Assembly (NCBI GenBank): GCA_013335535.1
Contig: JAAXVL010000010.1
Span: 78,992 to 142,991, forward strand
Direction: 5' to 3'
Length of the DNA stretch: 64,000 bases
Source of the DNA: Azonexaceae bacterium
Lineage (GTDB): Bacteria > Pseudomonadota > Gammaproteobacteria > Burkholderiales > Rhodocyclaceae
Shown: positions 36,124 to 63,934 of the stretch, one piece after another
Layout of the letters: each line of letters opens with the position of its first letter
Position numbering within the stretch: position 1 is the stretch's first letter
Made by a program: the position numbers and the translations under genes
Notes under the pieces: model-generated
What the model saw: the letters and a program-made list of their open reading frames with translations, nothing else
Told to the model about the DNA's origin: nothing
Databases searched by the model: none

Positions 36124-36239
36124 CATTAGATGGCACGAGCACGGCAGGTCGCATCTTGAAACAACTGAACCGGCCGGCTTCGAGTTAGCCCTTTGAGTTA
36201 CCTGTTTTGCAACTTCATTCAAGAACACTGGAGACAAAC

Positions 36240-37760
<1,521 letters not shown>

Positions 37761-37859
37761 AACCGGGCATCTCCTCCACTGGCCGCATTTAGATTTGCGG
37801 GCAACTCTTGGGGGCGGGCAACCGCCCCCCTTTTTTAAACTCGTTTCCAGGAGAAATTC

Positions 37860-38231
37860 ATGGTCGACCGCGTCATCGCCACCCCGGCAACGCTGGAACT
37901 CATCGCGCTCCTGAAACAGCAATACGGCCCGGAACTGATGTTCCACCAGTCCGGCGGCTGCTGCGACAACAGCGCGCCCAACTGCTACCTGCCCACCGAC
38001 CTGACCGTCGGCGCCTACGATGTCCATCTCGGCGATATCGGCGGCGTTCCTTTCTACATCAATGCCTCGCAGTACGAGTACTGGAAACACACGCAACTGA
38101 TCATCGATGTCGTCGCCGGCCAAGGCGGCAATTTCTCGCTCGAAGGCAACACCGGCAAGGCTTTCCACACCCGTTCGCGGCTCTTTACCGATGCCGAATG
38201 GGCCGAACTGCAGGCGGCCGGCCTCGTTTAA
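37860..38231 (+). CDS. DUF779-family protein (usual partner of this aldehyde dehydrogenase type)
   Basis: 123 aa with the FHQSGGCCDNS motif; conserved adjacency to the ALDH gene. Confidence 0.8.
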   Translation: MVDRVIATPATLELIALLKQQYGPELMFHQSGGCCDNSAPNCYLPTDLTVGAYDVHLGDIGGVPFYINASQYEYWKHTQLIIDVVAGQGGNFSLEGNTGKAFHTRSRLFTDAEWAELQAAGLV

Positions 38232-38249
38232 ATCCAAGGAACCATTCAC

Positions 38250-38588
38250 ATGACCAAGCAACTGCGCACCACCCTGCTGCTGCCCCTGCTCGCAGCCGCC
38301 ACCTTCGCTGCCACCTTTCCGGCCCATGCCACCGATGGCGAAGCCGCCGTCAAGAAAGCCCGCTGCATCGCCTGCCATGCCGTTGACACAAAGCGCGTCG
38401 GCCCGGCCTACAAGGACGTCGCCGCCAAATACAAGGGTGACGCCAAGGCACCAGGCGTCCTCTTCGACAAGGTCCGCCACGGCGGCTCCGGCAATTGGGG
38501 CACGGTGCCGATGATTCCGCACCCGGCCGACAAGATCAGCGACGAAGAACTGCACGCAGCGATCCAGTGGATCCTCTCGCTGCACTGA
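38250..38588 (+). CDS. cytochrome c551/c552 family mono-heme cytochrome
   Basis: Signal peptide, CIACH heme motif, GPAYKDVAAKY, and Met ligand region GTVPMIPH. Confidence 0.85.
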   Translation: MTKQLRTTLLLPLLAAATFAATFPAHATDGEAAVKKARCIACHAVDTKRVGPAYKDVAAKYKGDAKAPGVLFDKVRHGGSGNWGTVPMIPHPADKISDEELHAAIQWILSLH

Positions 38589-38658
38589 GCAACAAGCGGT
38601 AATACGCTGCCAGACCAGGGGAGAACAGCAAGCCCCGGCATGTTGGCAGCACGAAATC

Positions 38659-38691
38659 GGGGAGAAGCGGCGTCGCTTCTCCCCTTTTTTT
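38659..38691 (+). terminator. rho-independent terminator
   Basis: GGGGAGAAGCG-GCGT-CGCTTCTCCCC followed by T7. Confidence 0.75.
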
Positions 38692-38798
38692 GCCCTTCGG
38701 CGGACGCATAAGCAAATAATAATCAAGTCGTTCGTCGGCAAATCCCTGCTTGGTAGCCTGTGCTTCCCCAAAGACACAGACCAACAGAGATACCCCTC

Positions 38799-40043
38799 AT
38801 GAACAAACATCAACTGCTCCCGATTGTCCTGGCGCTCGGGCTGGCCGCGCCGGGCGTGGCATTCGCCACCAATGGTTATCTGTCGCACGCCTACGGCGTC
38901 AAGGCGCAAGGCCTGGCCGGCGTCGGCATTGCCCTGCCACAGGACGGCCTGGCTGCCGCCACCAATCCGGCCGGCACAGCCTTCGTCGGCGACCGTGCCG
39001 ACATCGGCATCACCTGGTTCCAGCCGACGCGCGGCGTCGATATCAGCGGCAACGGCGCCGGGCTCGATGGCAGCTACGACGGGAACGACACGAAGAATTT
39101 CTTCATCCCCGAAATCGGCTACACCAAGCAGCTGAACCAGCAGTGGGCGGTCGGCGTCGCGGTCTATGGCAATGGTGGCATGAACACCGACTACGGCCGC
39201 AACCCGTGGGCGTCCTTCGGCGCCACCGGCTCGGCCGGGGTCAATCTCGAACAGCTCTTCGTCTCGCCCAACGTCGCCTTCAAGATCACCCCGGACCACG
39301 CCGTCGGCCTCGCCCTCAATCTCGCCTACCAGCGCTTCGAGGCCAAGGGCATCGGCATCTTCGCCGGCGGCGGCAATTCCGAATCGCCGGCCGATTTTTC
39401 CGACCGCGGCACCGACACATCCTACGGTGCGGGTGTGCGCATCGGCTACACCGGCAAGCTGACGCCCTCGCTGACCGTCGGCGCCACCTATTCCAGCAAG
39501 ACCAAGACGAGCAATTTCGACAAGTACAAGGGCCTCTTCGCCGAACAGGGCGGCTTCGACGTGCCGGCCAACTACGGCCTCGGCCTGGCCTGGCAGGCTA
39601 CCCGGCAACTGACGCTGGCCGCCGACGTGCAGCTCATCAAATACAGCGACGTCAAGTCGGTGGGCAATCCGCTGGTCACTGGCAGTCAGTTCGGTTCGTC
39701 GAACGGCCCCGGTTTCGGCTGGAAGGACGTGACAACCGTCAAGATCGGCGCCAGCTTCGAGCTCAATCCCGACCTCACGCTACGCGCCGGCTACAGCCAC
39801 GCCACCCAGCCGATTCCGTCTGACCAGGTATTCCTCAACATCCTCGCCCCCGGCGTCGTACAGGACCACCTGAGCCTGGGCGCCACCTGGAAACCGAGCA
39901 AGAACGGCGAACTGAGCGTGGCCTACACCCACGCCTTCAAGGAAACCGTGAGCGGCGCCATCCCCGCCGCCTACGCCGGCGGCCGGGCCGACATCCACCT
40001 GCAGGAAAACGTCCTCGGGATCGCCTACGGCTGGAAATACTGA
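38799..40043 (+). CDS. OmpP1/FadL/TodX-family outer-membrane transporter for hydrophobic compounds
   Basis: Start at ATG 38799 (MNKHQLLPIVLALGLAAPGVAFA). N-terminal hatch motif TNGY..H.YG.KA.G.AG; C-terminal GIAYGWKY. Confidence 0.85.
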   Translation: MNKHQLLPIVLALGLAAPGVAFATNGYLSHAYGVKAQGLAGVGIALPQDGLAAATNPAGTAFVGDRADIGITWFQPTRGVDISGNGAGLDGSYDGNDTKNFFIPEIGYTKQLNQQWAVGVAVYGNGGMNTDYGRNPWASFGATGSAGVNLEQLFVSPNVAFKITPDHAVGLALNLAYQRFEAKGIGIFAGGGNSESPADFSDRGTDTSYGAGVRIGYTGKLTPSLTVGATYSSKTKTSNFDKYKGLFAEQGGFDVPANYGLGLAWQATRQLTLAADVQLIKYSDVKSVGNPLVTGSQFGSSNGPGFGWKDVTTVKIGASFELNPDLTLRAGYSHATQPIPSDQVFLNILAPGVVQDHLSLGATWKPSKNGELSVAYTHAFKETVSGAIPAAYAGGRADIHLQENVLGIAYGWKY

Positions 40044-54727: not shown

Positions 54728-55576
54728 TCAGCTCGCCTGATGGGTAATGCCGTGACGTTTGAAGATGCCGGCGATGGTGCCGTCGTTCTTCAGTTCCGCC
54801 ATGGCGCGCCCGAGGGCTTCGGCCAGCGCCTGATCCTCGACCTTGACTGCCATGCCGAGCGGCCAGCTGTCGACCTTCAGTTCGGCGAATTTCGGGCTGT
54901 CGAGAACGACATTGCCCTGCCCCTTGGTCGCTGCTTCAAGTTCGGCACGCGAGCCGAGCACCGCCGCCACCTTGCCATCGGCCATACCCTTGGCGGCATC
55001 GGCCACCGTCTTGAAATGCACGACGTTCTCGCGCAAGCGGCCATTCAGCACGCCCAGCAGGAAGGAGTCAGCCAGCGAGGTGGTTTCAACACCGATCTTT
55101 TCGCGCGTGAAAATTTCCAGCGCAACGGCCGCCGAGCCTGCGAGCGCCTTCGGCACACGTTCCGGATTGCGCGCCAGGGCCAGCGTTTCGACGTGATAGG
55201 CGCCAAAAATGCGGACCTTGTCGTTGGCGCGCGCCAGATATTCGTCGACTGGCACGTGCATCATGACGTCGGACGGCTGGGTGCCCAGATAATGGCCCTT
55301 CCAAACCATGTTGCGCAGGTCGTCGTTCATGTCCTCGTCGGCGTTGTAGCCGACGACTTCGGCCGTCAGACCGATCTTGGCGGCGAGCGCCCGGGCGATG
55401 TCGGCATCGATGCCCTTGCCGCCCGCCATCGAGTACGGCGCGAAGTCGTTATAGACCGCAACGCGCAGACGACCGCGCTGACGGATATCTTCGAAGCCAT
55501 CGGCCATGGCCGGCAAAGCTGCAGCCATGGGCAGCGCGGCCAGCGCCTTCAACCAGAGACGACGATCATTCTTCAT
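54728..55576 (-). CDS. periplasmic family-3 substrate-binding protein, MoxJ-like / quinoprotein-dehydrogenase-associated
   Basis: Signal peptide followed by LRVAVYNDFAPYS. No ABC permease or ATPase is adjacent. Confidence 0.75.
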   Translation of the reverse strand: MKNDRRLWLKALAALPMAAALPAMADGFEDIRQRGRLRVAVYNDFAPYSMAGGKGIDADIARALAAKIGLTAEVVGYNADEDMNDDLRNMVWKGHYLGTQPSDVMMHVPVDEYLARANDKVRIFGAYHVETLALARNPERVPKALAGSAAVALEIFTREKIGVETTSLADSFLLGVLNGRLRENVVHFKTVADAAKGMADGKVAAVLGSRAELEAATKGQGNVVLDSPKFAELKVDSWPLGMAVKVEDQALAEALGRAMAELKNDGTIAGIFKRHGITHQAS

Positions 55577-55994
55577 GGACAGTTTCCAACCAGGTGCGGA
55601 TGGCCCACATGGCCTCCTGACTCAGTGTACCTTCGAACGGCGGCATGTAAACACGGCCGTCGCGCACAGCGCCCTTGCGGATGCGCTGCAGGAAAACCTC
55701 GTCGCCTTCGTCGCCGAGCGGCAGGAAACGCAGATCGGGGGCAATACCGCCGGAGATGGCGCCCAGGCCGTGGCAGCGGGCACAGTTCTGGTTAAAGGCG
55801 GAATCTCCAATGCGAATCGCGGTCTTATCCTTGCGGTAAGGATTGCTCGGCAGGAAATCGGCGCCCAGGTTTTTCAGGCCGGTCGTATCGACGGCCTGCG
55901 GCACGACGTCACCGTGGGCGAAAACCTGGGACGCGGCCGTGCAAATGAGAAGGGCTGCGGCAACAGCACCGAGTTGTCGGAAGGGATGTTTCAC
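55566..55994 (-). CDS. cytochrome c550 of the ExaB/PedF type (electron acceptor of quinoprotein ADH)
   Basis: GTG 55994 preceded by AAGGAGA. Signal peptide (AAALLICTAASQVFA), CARCH heme motif and MPPF Met-ligand region. Confidence 0.75.
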   Translation of the reverse strand: MKHPFRQLGAVAAALLICTAASQVFAHGDVVPQAVDTTGLKNLGADFLPSNPYRKDKTAIRIGDSAFNQNCARCHGLGAISGGIAPDLRFLPLGDEGDEVFLQRIRKGAVRDGRVYMPPFEGTLSQEAMWAIRTWLETVHEE

Positions 55995-56042
55995 AATGTC
56001 TCCTTGTTTGATTGCGGGGTACTGCCTTTGTGACAAGGCATC

Positions 56043-56058
56043 TGCAAACCCTGTGCCA
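56043..56058 (-). promoter_or_regulatory. sigma-54 promoter for the cytochrome c550 / SBP / propeller / b561 operon
   Basis: Minus strand reads CTGGCACAGGGTTTGCA, about 50 nt upstream of GTG 55994. Confidence 0.7.
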
Positions 56059-56139
56059 GCTCGCCGGGCAAACCGCAAAATCCCTTTGCTGGCGGCTTTC
56101 AGCGGAGACTGCGCAAAAATGGCAACATTTGCCAGTGCA

Positions 56140-56155
56140 TGGCACGGCATTTGCT
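56140..56155 (+). promoter_or_regulatory. sigma-54 promoter upstream of the activator gene itself
   Basis: TGGCACGGCATTTGCT, about 105 nt upstream of ATG 56261. Confidence 0.6.
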
Positions 56156-56260
56156 GAAAGGTGTAGCGCACTGCTCGCTTCATTGCTAATAAAAAGGGCA
56201 GGTGTTACGTTATGAAGCAATAAAACTATAAATAGAGTTAGAGAAGACGCCGGAGGAGAG

Positions 56261-58246
56261 ATGGGACAGATTCAATTAGTGGCCGAAATTCACGGCCAGC
56301 GCCTGGAACAGGCACGACAGCTGTTTTTTGATCAGGGCAGCCTGCCCGATGGTTTGATCGATCCGGTGATCGTCCGTTCGTGGGAACGTTGCCGGCGCTT
56401 CGGGCTGGGCGAAGCCCACGCCATTCCGGCCGTCGATGCCATGGACCGCGTCGCCCTGAAAACCGAGCAGGACCGCAATCGCCTCCTGCTCGCCCAAGGC
56501 CGGCCGATCATGGAGCATGTTTACGAGCAGATCCGCGAATCCGGCAGCATGGTCATTCTTGCCGACGCCAACGGTCTGCTCCTCGAAACCGTTGGCGATG
56601 CCGACTTCGTCAACCGCGCCGACCGCGTTGCGCTGTCGGCCGGCGCTTCGTGGGACGAGAACCTGCGCGGCACCAATGCCATCGGTACCGCCCTGTCCGA
56701 AGAAAGCCCCGTCTCCATCCTCGGCGGCGAGCACTTCCTCGAACACAACAGTTTCCTGACCTGCTGCGCCAGCCCCATCTTCGGGCCGGACGGCCGGCTG
56801 ATCGGCGTTCTCGACATTTCCGGCGATTACCGCAGCTACCAGCGCCACACGCTGGGCCTGGTCCGCATGTCCTCGGCCATCGTCGAGCGGCGCCTCTTTG
56901 AATCGGTCCACACCCGCGACATCCTCGTCTGCTTCCACCACCGTGCCGACTACCTAGGCAGCCCGAAGGAAGGCATCGCTGCCGTTTCGCCGGACGGCCA
57001 GGTGCTGGCCATGAATCGCAACGGCACCGAACTGCTTGGCATCCGCCAGGTAGACGCCGTGCGCCGCGACTTTTCGATGGTTTTCGAAAGCAACCTGTCG
57101 GCGCTTGTCGACCGTCTGCGCCATACGCCATTCGGCAGCTACGAGATCAACGTCAATGGCAAATCCCTGCACGTCCAACTGCGCGGCCAGTTGCCGCCGC
57201 TCGCCATGGCCGGCCGGGTGTACGACGAACCGGCCGCCATCCGCGCCCCGCGCCGGCCCGAAGCCGCCGCCCCTTCCGGCCCGACGCTCGACACGCTGAA
57301 CACCGGCGATGCCCGCCTGCAGGCCGCCATCGAGCGCGCCCGACGCATCCTCGGCAAGGACATTCCCATCCTCATCCAGGGCGAATCGGGTGCCGGCAAG
57401 GAAATGTTCGCCAAGGGCTTCCACAACAGCGGCCCGCGCAGCACCGGCCCCTTTGTTGCCCTCAACTGCGCGTCGATCCCGGAAACACTCATCGAATCCG
57501 AACTCTTCGGCTACCAGGGCGGCGCCTTCACCGGCGCCCGCAAGGAAGGCGCCCCGGGCAAGATCCAGCAGGCGCACGGGGGTACCCTCTTCCTCGACGA
57601 AATCGGCGACATGCCGCTCAACCTGCAGGCCCGACTGCTGCGCGTGCTGCAGGAACGTTGCGTCACGCCGCTGGGCAGCACACGGGCGATCCAGGTCGAT
57701 ATTTCGCTGGTCTGCGCCACCCACCGAAAATTGCGCGAAGAAGTCGCCCGTGGCGCCTTCCGCGAAGACCTTTATTACCGGCTCAACGGCATGAGCGTCA
57801 CCATGCCAGCCCTGCGCGAGCGCACCGACATTCGCGCCCTGGTCACCAAGATCGCCGCCTCGGAAACGACGAACCGCAGCCTGCAGGTCCGTTTCTCCGA
57901 AAAGGCCCAGCACGCCATTGAGAACTATGCCTGGCCGGGCAACATCCGCCAGCTGTTCAACGTTATCCGCGTCGCCATCGCGCTACTCGACGACGACGAA
58001 GCCGTCATCAACGAAAGCCATCTGCCGGAAGAACTGTTCGAAACCATCATCGCCAGCCCCCCCAACGCGCCGCAAGGCTTCGACCCGTGGGCAGCAGCGC
58101 CGCTCGAAGGTGCCAACAGCATGGATGCGATCAGTCGTCAGGCCGCGATGCGCGCCCTCGACGCCGCTGGCGGCAACATCTCGTCAGCCGCGCGCCAGCT
58201 CGGCATCAGCCGCAACACGCTGTACCGCAAGCTGGGACGGATGTAG
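56261..58246 (+). CDS. sigma-54-dependent transcriptional activator, AcoR type (N-terminal GAF-like sensor, AAA+, Fis-type HTH)
   Basis: Walker A GESGAGKE, the GAFTGA loop (YQGGAFTGA), RVLQE, and C-terminal HTH AARQLGISRNTLYRKL. Confidence 0.9.
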   Translation: MGQIQLVAEIHGQRLEQARQLFFDQGSLPDGLIDPVIVRSWERCRRFGLGEAHAIPAVDAMDRVALKTEQDRNRLLLAQGRPIMEHVYEQIRESGSMVILADANGLLLETVGDADFVNRADRVALSAGASWDENLRGTNAIGTALSEESPVSILGGEHFLEHNSFLTCCASPIFGPDGRLIGVLDISGDYRSYQRHTLGLVRMSSAIVERRLFESVHTRDILVCFHHRADYLGSPKEGIAAVSPDGQVLAMNRNGTELLGIRQVDAVRRDFSMVFESNLSALVDRLRHTPFGSYEINVNGKSLHVQLRGQLPPLAMAGRVYDEPAAIRAPRRPEAAAPSGPTLDTLNTGDARLQAAIERARRILGKDIPILIQGESGAGKEMFAKGFHNSGPRSTGPFVALNCASIPETLIESELFGYQGGAFTGARKEGAPGKIQQAHGGTLFLDEIGDMPLNLQARLLRVLQERCVTPLGSTRAIQVDISLVCATHRKLREEVARGAFREDLYYRLNGMSVTMPALRERTDIRALVTKIAASETTNRSLQVRFSEKAQHAIENYAWPGNIRQLFNVIRVAIALLDDDEAVINESHLPEELFETIIASPPNAPQGFDPWAAAPLEGANSMDAISRQAAMRALDAAGGNISSAARQLGISRNTLYRKLGRM

Positions 58247-58248
58247 GG

Positions 58249-58629
58249 CTAGAGGCCGAGCAGCGGGCTACGCGTCAGTGCCACACTGACGATGTAGCCG
58301 TAGGCCAGCACGGCCAACCCGAGGTAGCGCGTCCGGATTGACTTGGTTCGGCCGCGCTTGAGCGCCATCATGCCGAACAAAATGTAGGCGAGCAGGCCGA
58401 AGAGCTTGGCGGTCAGCCAGCCGTTCACAAACGGGTACTGGCCGCTCAGCCAGGCCATGGTCAGCGCGCTGCCGAGCAGCAGCGTATCGACGATGTGGGG
58501 CAGGATGCGCGTCAGGCGGTGCTGGCGCAGCGGCGATTCGCGCAGCATCCACCAGCCACGCAGGCCAAAACCCAGGCCACTGAGCACGACGCAGGTAACG
58601 TGCAGATGTTTGAGGGCGAGATAGCTCAT
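58249..58629 (-). CDS. SirB2-family small membrane protein
   Basis: Start at ATG 58629 overlapping the upstream stop (ATGA). MSYLALKHLHVTCVVLSGLGFGLRG is typical of SirB2/YchQ-like proteins. Confidence 0.65.
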   Translation of the reverse strand: MSYLALKHLHVTCVVLSGLGFGLRGWWMLRESPLRQHRLTRILPHIVDTLLLGSALTMAWLSGQYPFVNGWLTAKLFGLLAYILFGMMALKRGRTKSIRTRYLGLAVLAYGYIVSVALTRSPLLGL

Positions 58630-59927
58630 GGCGCCGTCAGCTTGGCGGCGAGTTTGGCCTCGATGTCTGCCTGATGGTGACGATAGCGCCCGATGGCACC
58701 GGCCAGATTCCACCACAGCCAGCCATTGGCCACGGCAAAAGCCAGCCCGGCTGGTCGGGCCAGCCAGGCCGGGATGACGATGGCGGCGAGAAGCAGAGCC
58801 AGGGCGGCGGCGTAAGCCAGCAACTGCCGGTGCATGGCGGGTTCGGCGAGAATCTTGTTCATGGCCGGGGCCGGCACCTTGGCCTGGCCGCAAGTCTGCA
58901 GGTGCGTCCAGGATAAAAAGGGAACGATCTTGTAGAGCATGCCGGTGATGAAGGGGATGAATCCGCCGGCAATGAGCAAAACACCGAACATGAGGGTCCA
59001 GCCATCGATGTCAGCCAGCGCCGGCCGGATTGCCACGGTCAACAGGAAAAACAGCCCAAAAATGGAAAGTATCAAACCGAGCTGCCAGTAGCGGTAGGTG
59101 GCATCCGGCCGCGCCCGCCGCCGCTGCCCCTGCAGGCGCAGGGTCAGCCCGGCGAAGGCCATGCCGGCCAATGCCGCGCCAAGCTGGCCGAGGCGGACGA
59201 GCAGTGACCAGTCGCCGAGCACGCCGATGCTCCACAGCAGCAGCATGAGCAGCATGAAGAGCGGGAACCACCAGCTGGCGCGCGCCGGGTAGCCGGGCGT
59301 CAACTGGAACATCGGCACCACGACGTAGGCCATGGCCGCCAGCAGGACACCGGCCCAGCCGCCCAGCCCCCAACCGGCGTGCAGGTCAGCCAGCGCCATG
59401 AGGGGCAATGGCCAGCCATAGGCCAGCGCCAGTGCCAGAACGACGCCGAGCCCGACGACACCGGACAAGCCGAACAGCGCGACCTTGATGCCGCGGATGG
59501 TCGGGCTGGTTGTCGGGACGGCGATCAGGGCGCTGACGGTTACCGCCAGGAAGAACAGCATGCTCAGACCGAGCGTCAGGGCCGCGATGCCGAGCAGCGC
59601 AGGTGCCCCGAAAAAGAACCCGGCAGCCAGCAGGAGCGCCCCGACCGTGAGGCCGACATGGACGACGCGGGCTACGGCCACCGGCCGTTTCAGGCTAGCA
59701 CCGGCGACCACTGGCAGAATCTGGATGAGCGCGCCGAGCATGACCTGCAGCATGAAGCCGATGGTGATCAGATGCGTCGCCGCCAGGGCGCCGGGCGTCC
59801 ACCGCGAGGCGAAGATATCCGGCCCTTCGAAGGCGACGAGCAGGCCGGCCAGTGCTGCAAAGAGCGGCGCGGTCAGAAAGAAGCGCAGCGGCGCGGCGAA
59901 GGGCGGTGCGTTTTCGAAGGCCAGCAT
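58626..59927 (-). CDS. polytopic inner-membrane protein of unknown function (about 12 TM)
   Basis: 433 aa, almost entirely hydrophobic helices. No motif I can assign. Confidence 0.7.
   Translation of the reverse strand: MLAFENAPPFAAPLRFFLTAPLFAALAGLLVAFEGPDIFASRWTPGALAATHLITIGFMLQVMLGALIQILPVVAGASLKRPVAVARVVHVGLTVGALLLAAGFFFGAPALLGIAALTLGLSMLFFLAVTVSALIAVPTTSPTIRGIKVALFGLSGVVGLGVVLALALAYGWPLPLMALADLHAGWGLGGWAGVLLAAMAYVVVPMFQLTPGYPARASWWFPLFMLLMLLLWSIGVLGDWSLLVRLGQLGAALAGMAFAGLTLRLQGQRRRARPDATYRYWQLGLILSIFGLFFLLTVAIRPALADIDGWTLMFGVLLIAGGFIPFITGMLYKIVPFLSWTHLQTCGQAKVPAPAMNKILAEPAMHRQLLAYAAALALLLAAIVIPAWLARPAGLAFAVANGWLWWNLAGAIGRYRHHQADIEAKLAAKLTAP
59030..59073 (-). repeat. dispersed repeat, degenerate copy inside the membrane-protein coding region
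   Basis: ttgccacggtcaacaggaaaaacagcccaaaaatggaaagtatc; encodes LSIFGLFFLLTVAI within a predicted TM helix. Confidence 0.6.
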
Positions 59928-59966: not shown

Positions 59967-60194
59967 CTAGCGTGAAATCAGGATTTCGAAGGTGCCGTCG
60001 GGCAGCAACTCGGTTTCGTAATTGTGGCCATTCTGGCGCAGCACCTTGTAGAGCGGGTGCGGCTCGCGGAAGAGCAAAAGCAGCATCTTCTCGCCCTCCT
60101 TCAGCGTGTCGAGCATTTCCATGGTGGCCACGAAGGGGCCGGGCGGCTCCATGTAGCGGGCGTCGACAACGTGCGGGGTCTTGGGGTGGGTCAT
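59967..60194 (-). CDS. DUF2249-family protein
   Basis: ATG 60194 overlaps the hemerythrin-like gene stop (ATGA). HVVDARYMEPPGPFVATMEMLDTL matches the DUF2249 pattern as I recall it. Confidence 0.8.
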   Translation of the reverse strand: MTHPKTPHVVDARYMEPPGPFVATMEMLDTLKEGEKMLLLLFREPHPLYKVLRQNGHNYETELLPDGTFEILISR

Positions 60195-60637
60195 TGTTCG
60201 CAAAGTTCCGTTTCCAGCCGCTCGAGAATGGCCGGCAGTTCAGCCGTCAGATGCTGGTCGCACATCGGGTAGAGCATGTTCTCTTCCTTCATGTTGTGCT
60301 GCTGCATCATGATGACCAGCGTATCGGCCAGCCCGAGGTAGTCTTCGGCATTGGCCATCTTCAGGGCTTCGGCGGCATCGTCGAGCAGGCTGCGCAGTTG
60401 CTCGTGTTCCATGCGCATGACCTGGGTCGGTCCCATGCGCATGCCGGTCTTCGCTTCGAAGGTCGGGAAAAGCGTCTTTTCCTCGCTGTCGAAGTGCGCC
60501 AGCATGGCTGAATGAAAATGCCCGAAGGCGGCGCGGGCAAGGTCGAAACTGCCCTTGCCGACAGCCTGTTCGGCTTCGGCAAAAAGATCGTCGCAACGGC
60601 GATGATCGTCGGTCATGAAACTGCGAATGGTGGTCAT
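60191..60637 (-). CDS. hemerythrin HHE cation-binding domain protein
   Basis: Motifs MTDDHRRCDDLF, HFDSEEKTLFP, MRMEHEQL and HNMKEENMLYP (H/E iron ligands). Confidence 0.85.
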   Translation of the reverse strand: MTTIRSFMTDDHRRCDDLFAEAEQAVGKGSFDLARAAFGHFHSAMLAHFDSEEKTLFPTFEAKTGMRMGPTQVMRMEHEQLRSLLDDAAEALKMANAEDYLGLADTLVIMMQQHNMKEENMLYPMCDQHLTAELPAILERLETELCEQ

Positions 60638-60693: not shown

Positions 60694-60707
60694 TTGACCG
60701 CCATCAA
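60694..60707. promoter_or_regulatory. FNR/Dnr/NnrR-type box TTGAC-CGCC-ATCAA
   Basis: One mismatch to TTGAT-N4-ATCAA; centred about 63 nt upstream of ATG 60637. Confidence 0.5.
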
Positions 60708-60718
60708 ATCCGGTTCAA

Positions 60719-61459
60719 TCAGCCGCCGCAGATGCCAACCTGCAAATCGTCGAACCAGTTGATGAAGCGCTGCACATCAGCCCCCTGGTAGATCGCCCCG
60801 TGCTGCGGGCAGAGCATGTCGATCTCCATTTGCGAAACCCGCTCGCACCAGCGGCGCTTGGCCTCGTTGGAACCCATCCAGCGGCGGTGGAAACCCTCGG
60901 CATGACGAATGTGCTTGTCAAAACTTTCCACGAACAGGCCATCTTCGCCCGGCGGCAACAGGGCCGCGCCGACGTCACCGGAAAACAGCACCTTGGCGAC
61001 CTTGTCATAGAGGTGCAAATTGCCCGACGAATGCAGGTAATGCGCCGGAATGGCCTTGAGCATCAGGCCGTCAAGCGAGATGTCGGCACCTTCGTCGGGC
61101 ATCGAGACGAAAGTTTCTGCCGTACCACCAAAATGCGGAATGAAGCTGCTCCACAGCCAGCTGACGTAGCAACGCATCTTCGGATTGAATTCGAGCCACA
61201 GGGCCAGTGAAGAACAGATATCAGGGTCCTGGTGCGAGGCGAAAATGGCGCTCAACGCCGACGGATCGAACTCCGACGACAAGGCCGAGAAAACCGCCGG
61301 GAACACTTCGGCGCCGCCCGGGTCGAGCAGAATCCCCTGGCCGCCATGGGTCACCAGGTATTCATTGGTATCGATCAGGTAGTTCGGCTTGTCCGGATCG
61401 CGCACGATAGCGACCCATTTGTGGTTGCCATCCTGAAAGATCGTTTTTGTTTTTTTCAC
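60719..61459 (-). CDS. metallo-beta-lactamase-fold di-iron protein without a flavodoxin domain (ODP / FprA-core-like)
   Basis: 246 aa with a GTG start. Ligand-like positions SHQDPD, PAHYLHS, FSGDVG and CPQHG are in the order of flavodiiron/ODP di-iron sites. Confidence 0.65.
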   Translation of the reverse strand: MKKTKTIFQDGNHKWVAIVRDPDKPNYLIDTNEYLVTHGGQGILLDPGGAEVFPAVFSALSSEFDPSALSAIFASHQDPDICSSLALWLEFNPKMRCYVSWLWSSFIPHFGGTAETFVSMPDEGADISLDGLMLKAIPAHYLHSSGNLHLYDKVAKVLFSGDVGAALLPPGEDGLFVESFDKHIRHAEGFHRRWMGSNEAKRRWCERVSQMEIDMLCPQHGAIYQGADVQRFINWFDDLQVGICGG

Positions 61460-61477
61460 GCATCCGCTCCCGTATTC

Positions 61478-62107
61478 TCAGTTGCCGGCAAAAAAGGCTG
61501 ACCGGCGCAGCGCTTCCAGTGAAGCACGAATTTCTTCGACGACGCCGTCGAATTCCCCCGAAACCTGCGACAGCGGCACGGCAAAACTCTGGCCGTAAGC
61601 CGCTTCGATCTTGGCCGACTTGGCCAGCACGCCCCCCAGCTCGACCATCCTGAAGGCATCGTCGAGCGCCCCCCGGAGCTGTTTGCGCAAGCGGGCCAGA
61701 CGCTCGGCGTGGCGGTTATTCTCGACTTCACGTGCGGCCAGCACGTCACGCCCGCAACCGGCCGGCGACAGGTCGACAGCCCGCCGCAACAGCGCGGTAT
61801 GGCGGATATCCTGCAGGACCAGCGACACCTCGGTAACGCAGCCGTGGATAAGGCTGGTCAGCGATGACATGCCGTCGCGCAGATCCTGCGAAAACACCCG
61901 CAGTTCATTGGACAGCACACCAAAGCCCCGCGCCGCCGTCCCCGCCCGTTTGGCCAGGAAAATGGCGTTGAGGGCCATGATATTGATCTTGAAGGCGACG
62001 CCGACGACCGACTTGATCTCCTCGTTAATGCGGACGATGCGCAACAGGTCGACGCCGGCCTGCTGCGTCTTGGTCGGTAGGGTGGTCAGTGCAGTCGTCA
62101 TGGTCAT
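61478..62107 (-). CDS. soluble mini-MCP: methyl-accepting-chemotaxis signalling-tip domain only (209 aa)
   Basis: INIMALNAIFLAKRAGTAARGFGVLSNELRVFS aligns by eye to the MCP hairpin-tip consensus (LALNAAIEAARAGE.GRGFAVVADEVR.LA). No TM or sensor domain. Confidence 0.6.
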   Translation of the reverse strand: MTMTTALTTLPTKTQQAGVDLLRIVRINEEIKSVVGVAFKINIMALNAIFLAKRAGTAARGFGVLSNELRVFSQDLRDGMSSLTSLIHGCVTEVSLVLQDIRHTALLRRAVDLSPAGCGRDVLAAREVENNRHAERLARLRKQLRGALDDAFRMVELGGVLAKSAKIEAAYGQSFAVPLSQVSGEFDGVVEEIRASLEALRRSAFFAGN

Positions 62108-62185
62108 TGCGCAGCCGGTTGTTCAGTCAGATAGCAATGTATCAATTTCAGCAAGGAACAACCAGAAGACTGTTGATTTTGCCAC

Positions 62186-63934
62186 TTATTTTTCGAGCAC
62201 ATAGCTACCGGGCGCATCGGCCAGGGCCGGGAACTTGCGGTTGGCCGCCGGGTAAGCCGCGACCAGATCGCCGGTCCGTTCGCCGAGCCAGCGCGTCCAG
62301 TCTTCCCACCAGGTGCCGGGCTTTTTCTCGGCACGCTCGAACCAGTGTTCCCAGTGCTCGTTGCGTTCGGGTTCGCCGATCCAGTAGGCACGCTTGGGCG
62401 GGTTGGCCGGTGGATTGACGATGCCGAGAATGTGCCCCGAGGTCGACAGCACGAAGCGCACCGGCGCCTTGACGTTGATCTGCTTGCGAATGCGGTAGCA
62501 CTGTTTCCACGGCGCGATATGGTCGTCTTCGGCGGTCACGGCGTAGAGCGGCTGCTCGATGAGGTCAAGGTCAATGGACTCGCCACCGATGGTCAGCTTG
62601 TCGCGCTTGATCAGGTTGTTGTTGAGGTACAACTCGCGCAGGTAGTAGGAATGCATGGCCTGCGGCATGCGCGTCGTGTCCATGTTCCAGAACAGGACGT
62701 CGAACGGGGGCAGCGGCTGGCCGAGCAGATAGCTGTTGACCCAGTAGTTCCAGATCAGCGGGTTCGAACGCAGCATGCGGAAGGAACTGGCCATTTCGCT
62801 GCCATCGAGGAAACCCTTCTTGGCCATCGACTCTTCGAGCGCGTTGATACAGGCTTCGTCGATGAAGACATCAATGTCGCCCGGATGAGCAAAATCGGTC
62901 AGCGTTGTAAACAACGTCCAGTGGGCAACCGGCACCTTGTCGACACCAAAATGCTTGTTGGCCCAGGCCATGTAGGTGCTGACCAGCGTGCCGCCGATGC
63001 AGTAGCCGACCAGATGGACCTTGGGCACCTTGCAGAATTCGGTCACGACGCGCACGACCTCGTTGACGCCTTCGAGCAGGTAATCGTCGAAGCGGACGTC
63101 GGACAGATCCTCGCCCGGATTCTTCCAGCTCGTGATGAAGACCGAGAAGCCCTGATCGGTCAGATACTTGACCATGCTCTTCTTGGCCGTAAGGTCGAGG
63201 ATGTAGAACTTGTTGATCCACGGCGTGATGATGACGATGGGCATCGCCCGTACTTTTTCGGTGGTCGGCGTGTAGTGGATCAGTTCGACCAGACGATTGC
63301 GGAAAACCACCTTGCCCGGCGTCGTTGCGAGATCCTCGCCAACCTTGAAGGCGTCCGGTTCGACCATCAGGATGTTCTTGGCCTTGACGTCGCGCTGGAA
63401 GTTTTCCCATCCCTGCTTGAGGCTGCCGCCATTGGTTTCGACGAAGCGCTTCATGGCCACCGGATTGAGCCAGAAGAAATTGGTCGGTGCCACCATGTTG
63501 AGCCAGTTCCGCAGCCAGAAGGCGGAGCGACGACGTTCCTTGTCGGAGAGCCCCGGGGTTTCAAACAGCATGTCCTCGAAGCGGTGCTCGAAGGCGACGT
63601 ACCATTCCTTGACGATGTCCCAGCTCGCCGATTCGGTCCAGATCGGGTCCGCGAAGCGGGCGTCGTCGGCACTCGGCCGGACCACATCGCCGGACGGAAT
63701 CCCCAACGCCCTACGCATGACGTGCGACTGAAGCGCAACGAGGTCGCCGGACAGTGCGCTCATGGCGCGGGTCAGCTCCTGCGGGTGCATCAACCAGGCC
63801 ATTTGTGCATTGAGTAGCGAGGTCGTCACGCCATAGGGATCGATGGCGTTGCTGACGGCCTTGCCGAGCGATTCAACCGGACTCAGAGTGTTGATATCGA
63901 CGCCGTTGTGGCGCGCGGTTCCATTGCCAGACAT
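62186..63934 (-). CDS. phaC: class I poly(3-hydroxyalkanoate) synthase
   Basis: 582 aa with the lipase-box GYCIGG (catalytic Cys) and PhaC N-terminal domain motifs; conserved His region near the C-terminus (SGHI). Confidence 0.9.
   Translation of the reverse strand: MSGNGTARHNGVDINTLSPVESLGKAVSNAIDPYGVTTSLLNAQMAWLMHPQELTRAMSALSGDLVALQSHVMRRALGIPSGDVVRPSADDARFADPIWTESASWDIVKEWYVAFEHRFEDMLFETPGLSDKERRRSAFWLRNWLNMVAPTNFFWLNPVAMKRFVETNGGSLKQGWENFQRDVKAKNILMVEPDAFKVGEDLATTPGKVVFRNRLVELIHYTPTTEKVRAMPIVIITPWINKFYILDLTAKKSMVKYLTDQGFSVFITSWKNPGEDLSDVRFDDYLLEGVNEVVRVVTEFCKVPKVHLVGYCIGGTLVSTYMAWANKHFGVDKVPVAHWTLFTTLTDFAHPGDIDVFIDEACINALEESMAKKGFLDGSEMASSFRMLRSNPLIWNYWVNSYLLGQPLPPFDVLFWNMDTTRMPQAMHSYYLRELYLNNNLIKRDKLTIGGESIDLDLIEQPLYAVTAEDDHIAPWKQCYRIRKQINVKAPVRFVLSTSGHILGIVNPPANPPKRAYWIGEPERNEHWEHWFERAEKKPGTWWEDWTRWLGERTGDLVAAYPAANRKFPALADAPGSYVLEK

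What the first reader, a model, noticed from the sequence alone, without database searches (positions are those of the whole stretch)
60719..62107. ODP-like di-iron protein paired with a 209-aa signalling-tip-only MCP
Gene 61478-62107 encodes a soluble protein whose centre (INIMALNAIFLAKRAGTAARGFGVLSNELRVFS) matches the highly conserved hairpin tip of methyl-accepting chemotaxis proteins. It has no TM segment, sensor domain or obvious methylation helices.

Immediately downstream (an 18-nt gap) is a 246-aa MBL-fold protein with His/Asp/Glu positions ordered as in flavodiiron cores, but lacking the flavodoxin domain. As I recall, an oxygen-binding di-iron protein (ODP) partnered with a minimal soluble chemoreceptor (TM14 type) was characterised in Treponema/Thermotoga as an O2/Fe(II) chemotaxis input.

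Here a similar pair sits in a betaproteobacterium, downstream of phaC and upstream of a hemerythrin/DUF2249 operon. No che genes are nearby. The tip is divergent (K/T/A where MCPs have E/E/G), so the output partner may not be CheA/CheW.
Basis: partly seen in the sequence, partly recalled or inferred. Interest (0 to 1): 0.7.

Follow-up and report, generated by a model that had tools for sequence, protein, structure and literature searches.

The report
Oxygen-sensor ODP with single-chain chemoreceptor tip
The two genes encode a known type of iron/oxygen sensor protein (ODP) and a very small partner that looks like only the signalling end of a chemotaxis receptor, apparently built from one chain instead of the usual two; this is a previously undescribed variant of a known sensing system.

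Summary
Gene 60719-61459 (-) is an ODP: Pfam ODP E 7e-75, and E 1e-69 and 2e-61 to the two solved ODP sequences, with all metal-site motifs kept. Gene 61478-62107 (-) is a soluble 209-aa protein whose residues 27-104 match the MCP signalling tip.

The partner is not TM14-type. It belongs to a distinct family of about 200 aa (227 clusters at E<=1e-10). AlphaFold2 (pLDDT 95, pTM 0.86) and Foldseek indicate a single-chain four-helix bundle. Hairpin A is a canonical MCP tip (0.6 A rmsd to the Tsr tip). Hairpin B looks like a second, degenerate tip with an invariant "IEAAYG" block. The partner of the characterised T. denticola ODP, and TM14, have the tip at mid-chain.

The family gene was followed directly by an ODP gene in 82/82 Rhodocyclales loci and in 10/10 other contexts. 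Four of those ten contexts (three gene arrangements) lie inside che clusters (cheW/cheR/cheD/cheB). The Tsr residues that touch CheA/CheW are mostly conserved.

The adjacent hemerythrin cluster has its own conserved FNR-type box.

Verdict: an O2/Fe(II)-type sensory input to a chemosensory pathway, and a new architectural variant of a known kind. No experiments exist for this family.

The parts
61478..62107 (-). MCPt: 209-aa soluble tip-only MCP-like protein, predicted to be a single-chain four-helix bundle
   Evidence: Pfam MCPsignal 37.1 bits, residues 27-104. The family of about 200-aa proteins aligns end to end. AF2 gives pLDDT 95 and pTM 0.86. Foldseek finds single-chain 4-helix bundles and the Tsr tip.
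61769..62074 (-). Hairpin A (residues 12-113): canonical MCP signalling tip, with the turn at about residues 57-61
   Evidence: It aligns to Tsr 362-429 without gaps. It superposes on the Tsr tip fragment 6s1k_E over 85 columns at 0.6 A rmsd. N47 and G61 are invariant, and G56, F62, E68 and R70 are >=90% conserved.
61505..61750 (-). Hairpin B (residues 120-201): second, degenerate tip-like hairpin with a conserved G158...AKIEAAYG(168-172)...L179 block
   Evidence: The AF2 helix breaks at residues 171-172. E168 is invariant, 115/115. BLASTP aligns residues 135-203 to the same T. denticola MCP tip as residues 23-70. The C-half profile hits MCP tips in register at E 0.02-0.2, which is not significant on its own.
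60719..61459 (-). ODP: oxygen-binding di-iron protein (MBL fold, no flavodoxin domain)
   Evidence: Pfam PF19583 E 6.9e-75. PDB 6qrq E 1.1e-69 and 6qnm E 1.6e-61. Motifs D46, H76-x-D78-x-D80, H140, D162 and Q219-H220 are identical in the two solved ODPs.
62134..62145 (-). Conserved TTG(A/G)TACATTGC motif about 25-35 nt upstream of the MCPt start; possible extended -10 promoter element
   Evidence: It is conserved in most Azonexaceae phaC-MCPt intergenic regions. The consensus promoter scan did not flag it, so the promoter role is inferred only.
60694..60707 (.). FNR/DNR-type palindrome TTGAYN4RTCAA between ODP and hemerythrin. It is context and marks a separate promoter for the downstream cluster.
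   Evidence: It is the only match in the 64-kb window. A box with at most 2 mismatches sits at the same distance from the hemerythrin start in 75/75 related loci.
60191..60637 (-). Hemerythrin-domain protein (context, probably not part of the pair's unit)
   Evidence: Pfam Hemerythrin E 1.2e-22.
59967..60203 (-). DUF2249/TusA-like small protein (context)
   Evidence: Pfam DUF2249 E 1.4e-15.
58626..59927 (-). 433-aa polytopic membrane protein with no family assignment (context)
   Evidence: No Pfam or NCBIfam hit even at E 10. It is conserved after hemerythrin-DUF2249 in most loci.
58249..58629 (-). SirB-family membrane protein; its start overlaps the stop of the 433-aa gene (ATGA) (context)
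   Evidence: Pfam SirB E 1.8e-43. The start was placed by comparison with the 123-aa gene called in L001.
62186..63934 (-). Class I-type PHA synthase PhaC, directly upstream (context; synteny is specific to Rhodocyclales)
   Evidence: Pfam PhaC_N and Abhydrolase_1. phaC lies upstream of MCPt in 77 of 83 loci and abuts it in several Azonexus genomes.

Best explanation
The two genes form a two-protein sensory module for a chemosensory (Che) pathway.

ODP is the sensor. By homology it binds two Fe(II) ions and O2. In the characterised orthologues its metal/oxygen state changes its conformation and subunit association.

MCPt is its dedicated adaptor. It is a soluble protein of about 200 aa that consists only of the kinase-control tip of a chemoreceptor. 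It is built as one chain of two hairpins, which together imitate the four-helix bundle that ordinary receptors form as homodimers.

[quoted passage not shown] MCPt could therefore insert at the baseplate of receptor arrays, or form its own complexes with CheA/CheW encoded elsewhere in the genome. Hairpin B, and/or the membrane-distal end, is proposed to dock ODP. The O2/Fe state of ODP would then be converted directly into a change of CheA activity. This would need no transmembrane, HAMP or methylation modules.

Shown here: the identities of both proteins, the predicted architecture, strict gene pairing, conservation of CheA/CheW contact residues, and che-cluster embedding in other lineages.

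Inferred: physical ODP-MCPt binding, binding to CheA/CheW, which hairpin does what, the ligand (O2/Fe(II) rather than NO), and whether the output is motility or a stress response.
For: - ODP identity: Pfam ODP E 6.9e-75; solved ODPs at E 1e-69 and 2e-61; all metal-site motifs identical.
- Published function of ODP with a sensor-less MCP as an O2/Fe(II) chemotaxis input that modulates CheA.
- MCPt is a real, selected family: 227 50%-identity clusters at E<=1e-10, aligning over residues about 20-202, with invariant N47, G61 and E168.
- Structure: AF2 pLDDT 95, pTM 0.86. Foldseek matches the Tsr tip in the E. coli core signalling unit (6s1k_E) over 85 columns at 0.6 A, and the best whole-chain matches are single-chain 4-helix bundles.
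- The Tsr residues within 4 A of CheA/CheW in both core-unit structures are kept: N381=N 115/115, R404=R 105/115, R388=R/K 90/115, and I377, L380 and V384 stay hydrophobic. F396=F 112/115 and E402=E 104/115 are also kept.
- Pairing: ODP lies directly downstream in 82/82 Rhodocyclales loci and in 10/10 other contexts at 30-65% MCPt identity, often with a 4-nt overlap.
- che embedding: cheA-STAS-cheY-MCP next to cheR-cheD-cheB-MCPt-ODP in Methylococcaceae; MCPt-ODP-cheR-cheD-cheB in Thiobacillus; MCP-cheW-MCPt-ODP-cheR in a metagenomic contig.
Against: - No che gene lies in the 64-kb window or within about 6 kb of the pair in any of 83 Rhodocyclales loci. There the neighbours are phaC and a hypoxia/NO-type cluster.
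- The MCPsignal score is only just above Pfam's cut-off and covers less than half of the domain.
- The Glu equivalent to Tsr E385 is never present in hairpin A. Hairpin B is too diverged to be called an MCP tip by statistics alone.
- A pseudo-dimer with one degenerate face may not be able to make both trimer contacts and CheA/CheW contacts.
- The architecture rests on a prediction whose coordinates I could not inspect. DSSP printed no break at tip A.
- I could not check whether this genome has cheA/cheW.
- The primary ODP paper was not readable here.
Confidence: 0.6

Rival explanations
1. In Rhodocyclales the pair has a local role unrelated to Che pathways. ODP senses O2 (or NO) and, through MCPt, regulates the adjacent PHA synthase or the neighbouring hemerythrin/DUF2249/membrane-protein (NnrS) cluster. 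MCPt would be only a helical scaffold derived from an MCP.
For: - phaC is directly upstream in 77 of 83 loci, and its stop abuts or overlaps the MCPt start in several Azonexus genomes.
- The hemerythrin-DUF2249-membrane-(NnrS)-SirB block follows in most loci.
- No che genes lie nearby in this order.
- No terminator was predicted between the genes.
Against: - The phaC and hemerythrin neighbours are confined to the Rhodocyclales-like clade. In Vogesella, Methylococcaceae, Thiobacillus and several metagenomic lineages the pair stands alone or lies in che clusters.
- The hemerythrin cluster carries its own conserved FNR-type box.
- The CheA/CheW contact residues are under purifying selection across the family, which a mere scaffold would not need.
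Confidence: 0.15
2. MCPt is a decoy rather than a receptor. In one ODP state it binds CheW/CheA-P5 (or caps receptor trimers) and thereby sequesters array components or disorders arrays. This would switch a Che pathway down instead of transmitting graded signals.
For: - There is no methylation region, so MCPt has no adaptation of its own.
- Only one of its two hairpins keeps the canonical surface.
- Hairpin A has L/I/V at the Tsr-E385 position. In Tsr such changes still allow assembly and kinase activation but prevent normal switching off.
- In T. denticola, loss of ODP changes CheA ordering in arrays.
Against: - In che clusters the pair occupies the position of a receptor gene, between cheW and cheR.
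- The characterised ODP partner receptors modulate CheA as receptors.
- There is no direct evidence either way.
Confidence: 0.15
3. The physiological ligand in these denitrifying Betaproteobacteria is nitric oxide (or nitrosative stress) rather than O2/Fe(II). The module would steer cells, or a stress pathway, relative to NO.
For: - The ODP core is homologous to flavodiiron NO/O2 reductases.
- The pair sits next to an FNR/DNR-type-regulated hemerythrin-DUF2249 cluster that includes NnrS in 8 loci.
Against: - Characterised ODPs were reported as O2 and Fe(II) sensors.
- The metal-site motifs are identical to theirs.
- The neighbourhood is lineage-specific.
- No NO-binding data exist.
Confidence: 0.2
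4. The 209-aa ORF is a decayed fragment of an MCP gene, or a chance match without function.
For: The Pfam score is marginal and covers only 78 residues.
Against: - Full-length conservation in hundreds of clusters of constant length.
- Invariant residues in both halves.
- A very confident fold prediction.
- Strict pairing, often translationally coupled, with ODP.
Confidence: 0.01

Closest known systems
T. denticola ODP (TDE2498) with its soluble receptor TDE2496 (Muok et al. 2019, PNAS 116:14955; cited through PMC7319448, PMC7666581, PMC6978683)
   Same: - The ODP belongs to the same family (E 2e-61 to the solved ODP sequence that I assign to T. denticola, with identical metal-site motifs).
- It is genetically coupled to a soluble MCP-like protein with no TM or sensor domain.
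   Different: - Gene order is ODP then MCP, with a 174-nt gap, in T. denticola. Here it is MCP then ODP.
- The ODP-adjacent MCP there (284 aa, taken to be TDE2496) has a canonical tip (IEAARAG) at mid-chain, as in a symmetric hairpin. MCPt is 209 aa with the tip at residues 55-62, lacks the Glu in hairpin A, and adds a second degenerate hairpin.
- The family profile matches that MCP only over the tip.
T. maritima ODP with TM14 (PDB 6qrq/6qwo; 3g67/3g6b)
   Same: - This is the closest solved ODP (E 1e-69).
- The partner is a short soluble receptor of similar length (213 aa) that binds CheA/CheW through its tip (PDB 3ur1 and 4jpb hits).
   Different: - MCPt residues 14-82 align to TM14 residues 66-134. 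TM14 therefore has about 50 more residues before the tip and about 50 fewer after it.
- Foldseek aligns TM14 only partially.
Aer2/McpB-type soluble PAS-haem O2 receptors of Che2/F7-type clusters (P. aeruginosa, Vibrio, Shewanella)
   Same: - A soluble O2-sensing input encoded inside che clusters of the cheW-mcp-cheR-cheD-cheB type, some with an anti-sigma antagonist (STAS) gene.
- MCPt-ODP occupies the same kind of position in Methylococcaceae, Thiobacillus and a metagenomic contig.
   Different: - Aer2 is one polypeptide with PAS-haem, HAMP and a full-length methylatable signalling domain.
- Here the sensor is a separate non-haem di-iron protein, and the receptor is reduced to the tip.
- I did not classify these che clusters phylogenetically.
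Flavodiiron proteins (e.g. T. maritima FDP 1vme/4dik; NorV)
   Same: MBL-fold di-iron core (E about 1e-9).
   Different: - There is no flavodoxin domain.
- Motif 2 is H-x-D-x-D without the last His, and a Gln precedes the motif-5 His, as described for ODP.
- ODP is a sensor, not a reductase.
DcrH (Desulfovibrio MCP with a C-terminal hemerythrin domain)
   Same: A non-haem di-iron O2-binding module coupled to an MCP signalling domain.
   Different: - DcrH is a single transmembrane polypeptide with a different di-iron fold.
- The hemerythrin gene next to this pair is a separate, FNR-box-controlled gene.

Membership tests
ODP (oxygen-binding di-iron protein, Pfam PF19583) | Full-length match to the ODP model and to solved ODPs | tested here: met
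   PF19583 251.6 bits (cut-off 27.2), profile positions 1-194 of 194. 6qrq E 1.1e-69 and 6qnm E 1.6e-61 over residues 4-243.
ODP (oxygen-binding di-iron protein, Pfam PF19583) | MBL-fold di-iron core without a flavodoxin domain | tested here: met
   246 aa, with only the ODP and Lactamase_B domains. FDPs align only over their N-terminal core.
ODP (oxygen-binding di-iron protein, Pfam PF19583) | ODP-type metal-site motifs: H-x-D-x-D in motif 2, His in motif 3, Asp in motif 4, Gln-His in motif 5 | tested here: met
   H76-Q-D78-P-D80, H140, D162 and Q219-H220 are identical in the window protein, both solved ODPs and six other MCPt-linked ODPs. The Gln substitution is described in PMC7785958. Exact ligand numbering from the primary paper could not be checked.
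ODP (oxygen-binding di-iron protein, Pfam PF19583) | Binds Fe(II) and O2 as a stable peroxo adduct | not testable with these tools
   Needs UV-vis, resonance Raman or EPR on purified protein.
ODP (oxygen-binding di-iron protein, Pfam PF19583) | Genetic coupling to a signal-transduction partner (an MCP gene in one of two orders) | tested here: met
   The MCP-then-ODP order was found in 82/82 and 10/10 contexts. Both orders are reported in the literature.
MCP signalling domain (Pfam PF00015) | Score above the curated cut-off | tested here: met
   37.1 bits against 34.6, but only profile positions 35-112 of 172.
MCP signalling domain (Pfam PF00015) | Conserved hairpin tip with the CheA/CheW contact surface | tested here: met
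   Ungapped alignment to Tsr 362-429. 0.6 A rmsd to the Tsr tip in 6s1k. Contact residues are conserved.
MCP signalling domain (Pfam PF00015) | Conserved Glu at the Tsr-E385 position of the tip | tested here: not met
   The five commonest residues at this column of hairpin A are L, I, V, T and A (106/115), and Glu is not among them. An invariant Glu (E168, 115/115) sits at the equivalent place in hairpin B.
MCP signalling domain (Pfam PF00015) | Methylation (adaptation) helices flanking the tip, so that the protein is 'methyl-accepting' | tested here: not met
   The helices are only about 29-52 residues long. The profile regions outside positions 35-112 are not matched.
MCP signalling domain (Pfam PF00015) | Four-helix bundle formed by a homodimer of symmetric hairpins | tested here: not met
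   By prediction only. AF2 gives four helices in one chain (pTM 0.86), and the best whole-chain Foldseek matches are single-chain 4-helix bundles. Oligomeric state was not tested.
TM14/TDE2496-type ODP-coupled soluble receptors | Sensor-less soluble MCP encoded next to ODP | tested here: met
TM14/TDE2496-type ODP-coupled soluble receptors | Tip at mid-chain, with N- and C-arms of similar length | tested here: not met
   The tip is at residues 55-62 of 209. In TM14 it is at about residue 107 of 213. In the T. denticola ODP-adjacent MCP it is at about residue 150 of 284.
TM14/TDE2496-type ODP-coupled soluble receptors | Modulates CheA together with ODP | not testable with these tools
   Needs reconstitution with CheA/CheW.

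The most novel reading that the evidence does not exclude
MCPt is a natural single-chain pseudo-dimer of the chemoreceptor signalling tip that arose by tandem duplication of a tip hairpin.

Hairpin A keeps the CheA-P5/CheW (and trimer) surface. Its Glu at the Tsr-385 position is replaced by an aliphatic residue, which in Tsr biases the tip towards kinase-on. Hairpin B has been repurposed as the docking and switch surface for ODP.

The whole sensory, transmembrane, HAMP and methylation apparatus of a receptor would thus be replaced by a protein-protein switch on an intrinsically asymmetric 'dimer'.

In Rhodocyclales the module has additionally been recruited next to phaC and an FNR-controlled hemerythrin/NnrS cluster. 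This may tie oxygen sensing to the anoxic/oxic storage-polymer lifestyle.
Probability: 0.35. Interest if true: 0.7.

Novelty: new variant of a known kind. Interest (0 to 1): 0.52.

Why it matters
ODP-coupled sensor-less receptors are so far known from one spirochaete and one thermophile. How such receptors plug into arrays is unresolved: in T. denticola, ODP changes CheA ordering but has no assigned position in the array.

A widespread proteobacterial family reduces the receptor to about 200 residues in one chain. If that architecture is correct, it would be the smallest natural kinase-control module. Its two 'subunits' would also be genetically distinct. That would make an old question directly testable by mutating one hairpin at a time: whether the inner and outer subunits of a receptor dimer have different jobs (trimer contacts versus CheA/CheW binding).

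The family also offers a compact, soluble O2/Fe-responsive switch for structural work. It points to oxygen-related behaviour in Dechloromonas/Azonexus-type denitrifiers and polyphosphate-accumulating bacteria of wastewater systems.

Tried and rejected
- The primary ODP paper (PMC6660769 / doi 10.1073/pnas.1904234116) is not held. Its content is cited only through secondary papers.
- A first genome scan with the 115-sequence alignment failed because no stretch was conserved enough. It was repeated with 12 sequences. The 80 loci returned are all Rhodocyclales-like, so wider contexts came from 12 single look-ups.
- A profile search with the 30 most distant members returned almost only Methylobacter relatives because of the word filter.
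- Internal duplication tests:
  - hhalign of the N-half against the C-half gave only probability 13%.
  - Pfam finds no MCPsignal in any of 42 C-halves.
  - The C-half profile against PDB gives MCP tips at E 0.02-0.2, mixed with coiled-coil noise such as coronavirus spike HR1.
  - The duplication therefore remains a supported hypothesis, not a result.
- A sigma-54 promoter upstream of MCPt was considered and rejected. The GG-N9-GC spacing is one base short, and the conserved motif has the wrong spacing.
- The simple sigma-70 and terminator scan found nothing useful.
- An FNR-type box upstream of MCPt was not found.
- A fused MCPt-linker-ODP fold was prepared but dropped, because the tool returns no coordinates or PAE.
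- The 433-aa protein is not a detectable NnrS relative.
- The 1129-aa ORF at 36219-39608 (-) is an antisense artefact over an aldehyde dehydrogenase gene and a FadL-type gene.
Full report
**Observation**

On the minus strand the window carries phaC (62186-63934) and a 209-aa ORF (61478-62107, ATG). After an 18-nt in-frame gap with a GGGAG ribosome-binding site comes a 246-aa ORF (60719-61459, GTG). Downstream lie a hemerythrin-domain gene (60191-60637), a DUF2249/TusA-like gene (59967-60203), a 433-aa membrane protein gene (58626-59927) and a SirB-family gene. The large ORFs elsewhere in the window include a PQQ alcohol dehydrogenase, an RND efflux system and hybrid histidine kinases, but no che genes. 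Homologue names place the window in Azonexaceae (Dechloromonas/Azonexus/Ferribacterium).

**The 246-aa protein is an ODP**

- It matches Pfam ODP (PF19583) over the whole model at E 6.9e-75.
- It matches the two solved ODP sequences at E 1.1e-69 (6qrq/6qwo) and 1.6e-61 (6qnm/6r9n) over residues 4-243.
- Flavodiiron proteins match only at about 1e-9, over their N-terminal core.
- There is no flavodoxin domain.
- The MBL metal-site motifs are identical in the window protein, both solved ODPs and six ODPs from other lineages. These are D46, H76-Q-D78-P-D80, H140, D162 and Q219-H220.
- The Gln before the motif-5 His and the missing last His of motif 2 are the ODP peculiarity noted in PMC7785958.

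According to the papers I could read, ODP acts with a sensor-less soluble MCP as an O2/Fe(II) input to chemotaxis in T. denticola. ODPs occur in operons with MCP genes in two gene orders, with other signalling genes, or as fusions. The primary paper was not available.

**The 209-aa protein defines a family of its own**

Pfam MCPsignal matches residues 27-104 at 37.1 bits (cut-off 34.6), covering profile positions 35-112 of 172. PDB searches find the tips of Tsr, TM1143 and TM14 at E 5e-7 to 2e-5. The alignment to Tsr 362-429 is ungapped.

An exhaustive HMMER search of 1.8 billion cluster representatives finds 227 clusters at E<=1e-10. Nearly all are 190-215 aa and align over residues about 20-202. 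A 115-sequence alignment shows N47, G61 and E168 invariant, and two conserved blocks:
- the tip block N-L-x-A-L-N-A-x-L-x-A-x-R-A-G-x-x-A-x-G-F-G-V-x-S-x-E-L-R (residues 42-70);
- a second block G158-x-x-L-A-R-x-A-K-I-E168-A-A-Y-G-G...L179-x-Q-V.

Named members come from Azonexaceae, Vogesella, Thiobacillus and Methylobacter/Methylococcaceae.

**Architecture**

AlphaFold2 on this alignment gives pLDDT 95.0 and pTM 0.86, with helices 12-113, 120-170 and 173-201. DSSP printed no break at the expected tip (residues 57-61). However, Foldseek superposes the model on the Tsr tip fragment of the E. coli core signalling unit (6s1k_E) over 85 columns at 0.6 A rmsd and 33% identity. That is possible only if residues about 20-105 form the canonical hairpin. 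The best whole-chain matches are de novo single-chain four-helix bundles of about 195 residues, such as 6z0c and 8d9p.

The chain therefore reads as follows:
- helix 1 running down, tip A, helix 2 running up;
- a six-residue loop;
- helix 3 running down, turn B at residues 171-172, helix 4 running up.

Both turns lie at the same end. This is the topology of an MCP homodimer tip made from one polypeptide. I could not inspect coordinates, so this is a strong prediction and not an observation.

**Is hairpin B a second tip?**

BLASTP against the MCP next to T. denticola ODP aligns residues 23-70 (E 9e-7) to its tip. It also aligns residues 135-203 (E 3e-3, with a four-residue deletion at the turn) to the same tip, pairing AKIEAA--YG-SFAV with ASIEAARAGSVGNGFRI. 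A profile of 42 C-halves hits the TM14, TM1143 and Tsr tips in register, but only at E 0.02-0.2 and among coiled-coil noise. hhalign of the N-half against the C-half gives probability 13%. Pfam sees no MCPsignal in any C-half. Tandem duplication of a tip hairpin is thus the best reading, but it is not statistically established.

**Does the tip still look able to bind CheA/CheW?**

Query position equals Tsr position minus 334. The Tsr residues within 4 A of CheA and/or CheW in both core-unit structures are Q374, I377, L380, N381, V384, R388 and R404 (PMC13098124). The family has the following at these and other key tip positions:

| Tsr residue | Family residues (of 115) |
|---|---|
| I377 | L/I/M/V |
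| L380 | L/I/V |
| N381 | N, 115/115 |
| V384 | L/F/V/I |
| R388 | R 73 plus K 17 |
| R404 | R 105 |
| G390 | G 112 |
| G395 | G 115 |
| F396 | F 112 |
| V398 | V 99 |
| E402 | E 104 |

The clear departure is Tsr E385. The top residues at that position are L 52, I 21, V 15, T 9 and A 9, and Glu is not among them. In Tsr, all E385 replacements still assembled trimers and core complexes. E385I/L/M activated CheA but could not be switched off by serine in an adaptation-deficient host (PMC6681711).

**Co-conservation**

A scan of one genome per species found 232 genomes with a relative. The 80 best loci are all Rhodocyclales-like. In these, plus three close loci, ODP follows directly in 82 of 82 cases where the contig continues.

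Ten further contexts of members at 30-65% identity all have ODP immediately downstream, often with a 4-nt overlap:
- Vogesella: one;
- Methylobacter/Methylococcaceae: two;
- Thiobacillus: one;
- metagenomic contigs: six.

ODP is much better conserved (65-78%) than MCPt (30-65%) across these pairs.

Four of the ten contexts, representing three gene arrangements, are inside che clusters:
- cheA-STAS-cheY-MCP divergent from cheR-cheD-cheB-MCPt-ODP (Methylococcaceae);
- MCPt-ODP-cheR-cheD-cheB-PAS/GGDEF/EAL (Thiobacillus);
- MCP-cheW-MCPt-ODP-cheR (metagenomic contig).

This gene repertoire resembles the Che clusters that carry the soluble O2 receptor Aer2 and, in Shewanella, an anti-sigma antagonist. 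Those clusters are thought to control stress responses rather than swimming (PMC9855816). I did not classify the clusters.

**Local neighbourhood**

In Rhodocyclales the block phaC-MCPt-ODP-hemerythrin-DUF2249-433-aa membrane protein-(NnrS in 8 loci)-SirB is largely conserved. Several Azonexus genomes have phaC abutting MCPt. Most others have an intergenic region of about 80 nt with a conserved TTG(A/G)TACATTGC motif, possibly an extended -10.

Between ODP and hemerythrin lies TTGACCGCCATCAA (60694-60707). It is the only TTGAYN4RTCAA match in the window. A box with at most 2 mismatches to TTGAT-N4-ATCAA is present at the same distance from the hemerythrin start in 75 of 75 loci. It is centred about 63 nt upstream of the ATG, which fits a class II FNR/DNR-type promoter (inference). 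The hemerythrin cluster is therefore probably a separate, anoxia- or NO-regulated unit that merely neighbours the pair. Outside this clade the pair lacks both phaC and hemerythrin neighbours.

**Mechanism proposed**

ODP senses Fe(II)/O2, by homology. MCPt is its adaptor. Hairpin A engages CheW/CheA-P5, or joins receptor trimers at the baseplate, of a Che system encoded elsewhere. ODP binding to MCPt shifts the tip conformation and thus CheA activity. The interface is unknown; hairpin B or the distal end is my guess. MCPt cannot adapt by methylation.

Rivals are:
- a local non-Che role tied to phaC or the hypoxia cluster;
- a decoy function;
- NO rather than O2 as the ligand.

None is excluded for this organism, because no che genes are linked here and I could not examine the rest of its genome.

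**Comparison and novelty**

- As an ODP, the 246-aa protein is an ordinary member.
- As an ODP-MCP pair, the locus belongs to a published kind.
- The partner fails three features of TM14/TDE2496-type receptors and of MCPs in general: a mid-chain tip, a homodimeric bundle, and methylation helices plus the E385-type Glu. It passes the tip-surface and pairing tests.

I found no description of this single-chain, two-hairpin family in the searchable literature. The primary paper's supplementary phylogenomics may already list these genes as 'MCP'. I therefore rate it a new variant of a known kind, of moderate interest.

Noticed in passing
window 60694-60707 (ODP-hemerythrin intergenic region): A palindrome TTGACCGCCATCAA (TTGAYN4RTCAA, FNR/DNR/NnrR type) is the only such match in the 64 kb. 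A box with at most 2 mismatches is found at a fixed distance (about 63 nt from box centre to ATG) upstream of the hemerythrin gene in 75/75 related loci. This suggests that the hemerythrin-DUF2249-membrane-SirB cluster is an anoxia- or NO-regulated unit of its own.
   Followed up: partly
window 58626-59927 (-): A 433-aa polytopic membrane protein has no Pfam or NCBIfam match even at E 10 and no detectable similarity to NnrS. It is conserved right after hemerythrin-DUF2249 and is followed by an NnrS gene in 8 related loci. It has many invariant His, Trp, Pro and Met residues (for example H52, H183, W186, M206). Its function is unknown.
   Followed up: partly
window 62108-62185, and loci L040, L049, L054, L063, L064, L067, L070, L072, L074: The PHA synthase gene phaC is directly upstream of MCPt in 77 of 83 Rhodocyclales loci. 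In several Azonexus genomes its stop abuts or overlaps the MCPt start. This hints at co-transcription of a storage-polymer enzyme with an oxygen-sensor module. Most other genomes carry a conserved TTG(A/G)TACATTGC motif there (window 62134-62145).
   Followed up: partly
loci L084, L088, L089, L091, L092, L093 compared with the window: Across lineages ODP stays 65-78% identical, while its partner MCPt drops to 30-65%. The sensor evolves much more slowly than its adaptor.
   Followed up: no
loci L048 and L081: Two MAGs labelled Bacteroidota and Nitrososphaerota carry a locus 64-85% identical to the Rhodocyclales phaC-MCPt-ODP block. This is most likely contig mis-binning, not cross-phylum distribution.
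   Followed up: no
window 61478-62107, AF2 model mc238fa8895c1: The DSSP string shows one unbroken helix over residues 12-113, even though Foldseek superposes residues about 20-105 on a receptor hairpin at 0.6 A. The turn at residues 57-61 must have been assigned as helical.
   Followed up: no
window 56261-58246 (+), 55566-56183 (-), 54728-55576 (-), 24770-26551 (+): A sigma-54 activator (GAF-PAS-AAA-HTH; its homologue carries a MimR_N domain) sits next to a cytochrome c gene, a solute-binding protein gene and, further off, a PQQ alcohol dehydrogenase gene. This is an ordinary alcohol-oxidation regulon and is unrelated to the pair.
   Followed up: no
window 36219-39608 (-): A 1129-aa ORF without any Pfam match is an antisense artefact. 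The plus strand there encodes an aldehyde dehydrogenase (36207-37760) and a FadL/TodX-type outer-membrane transporter (38760-40043).
   Followed up: yes
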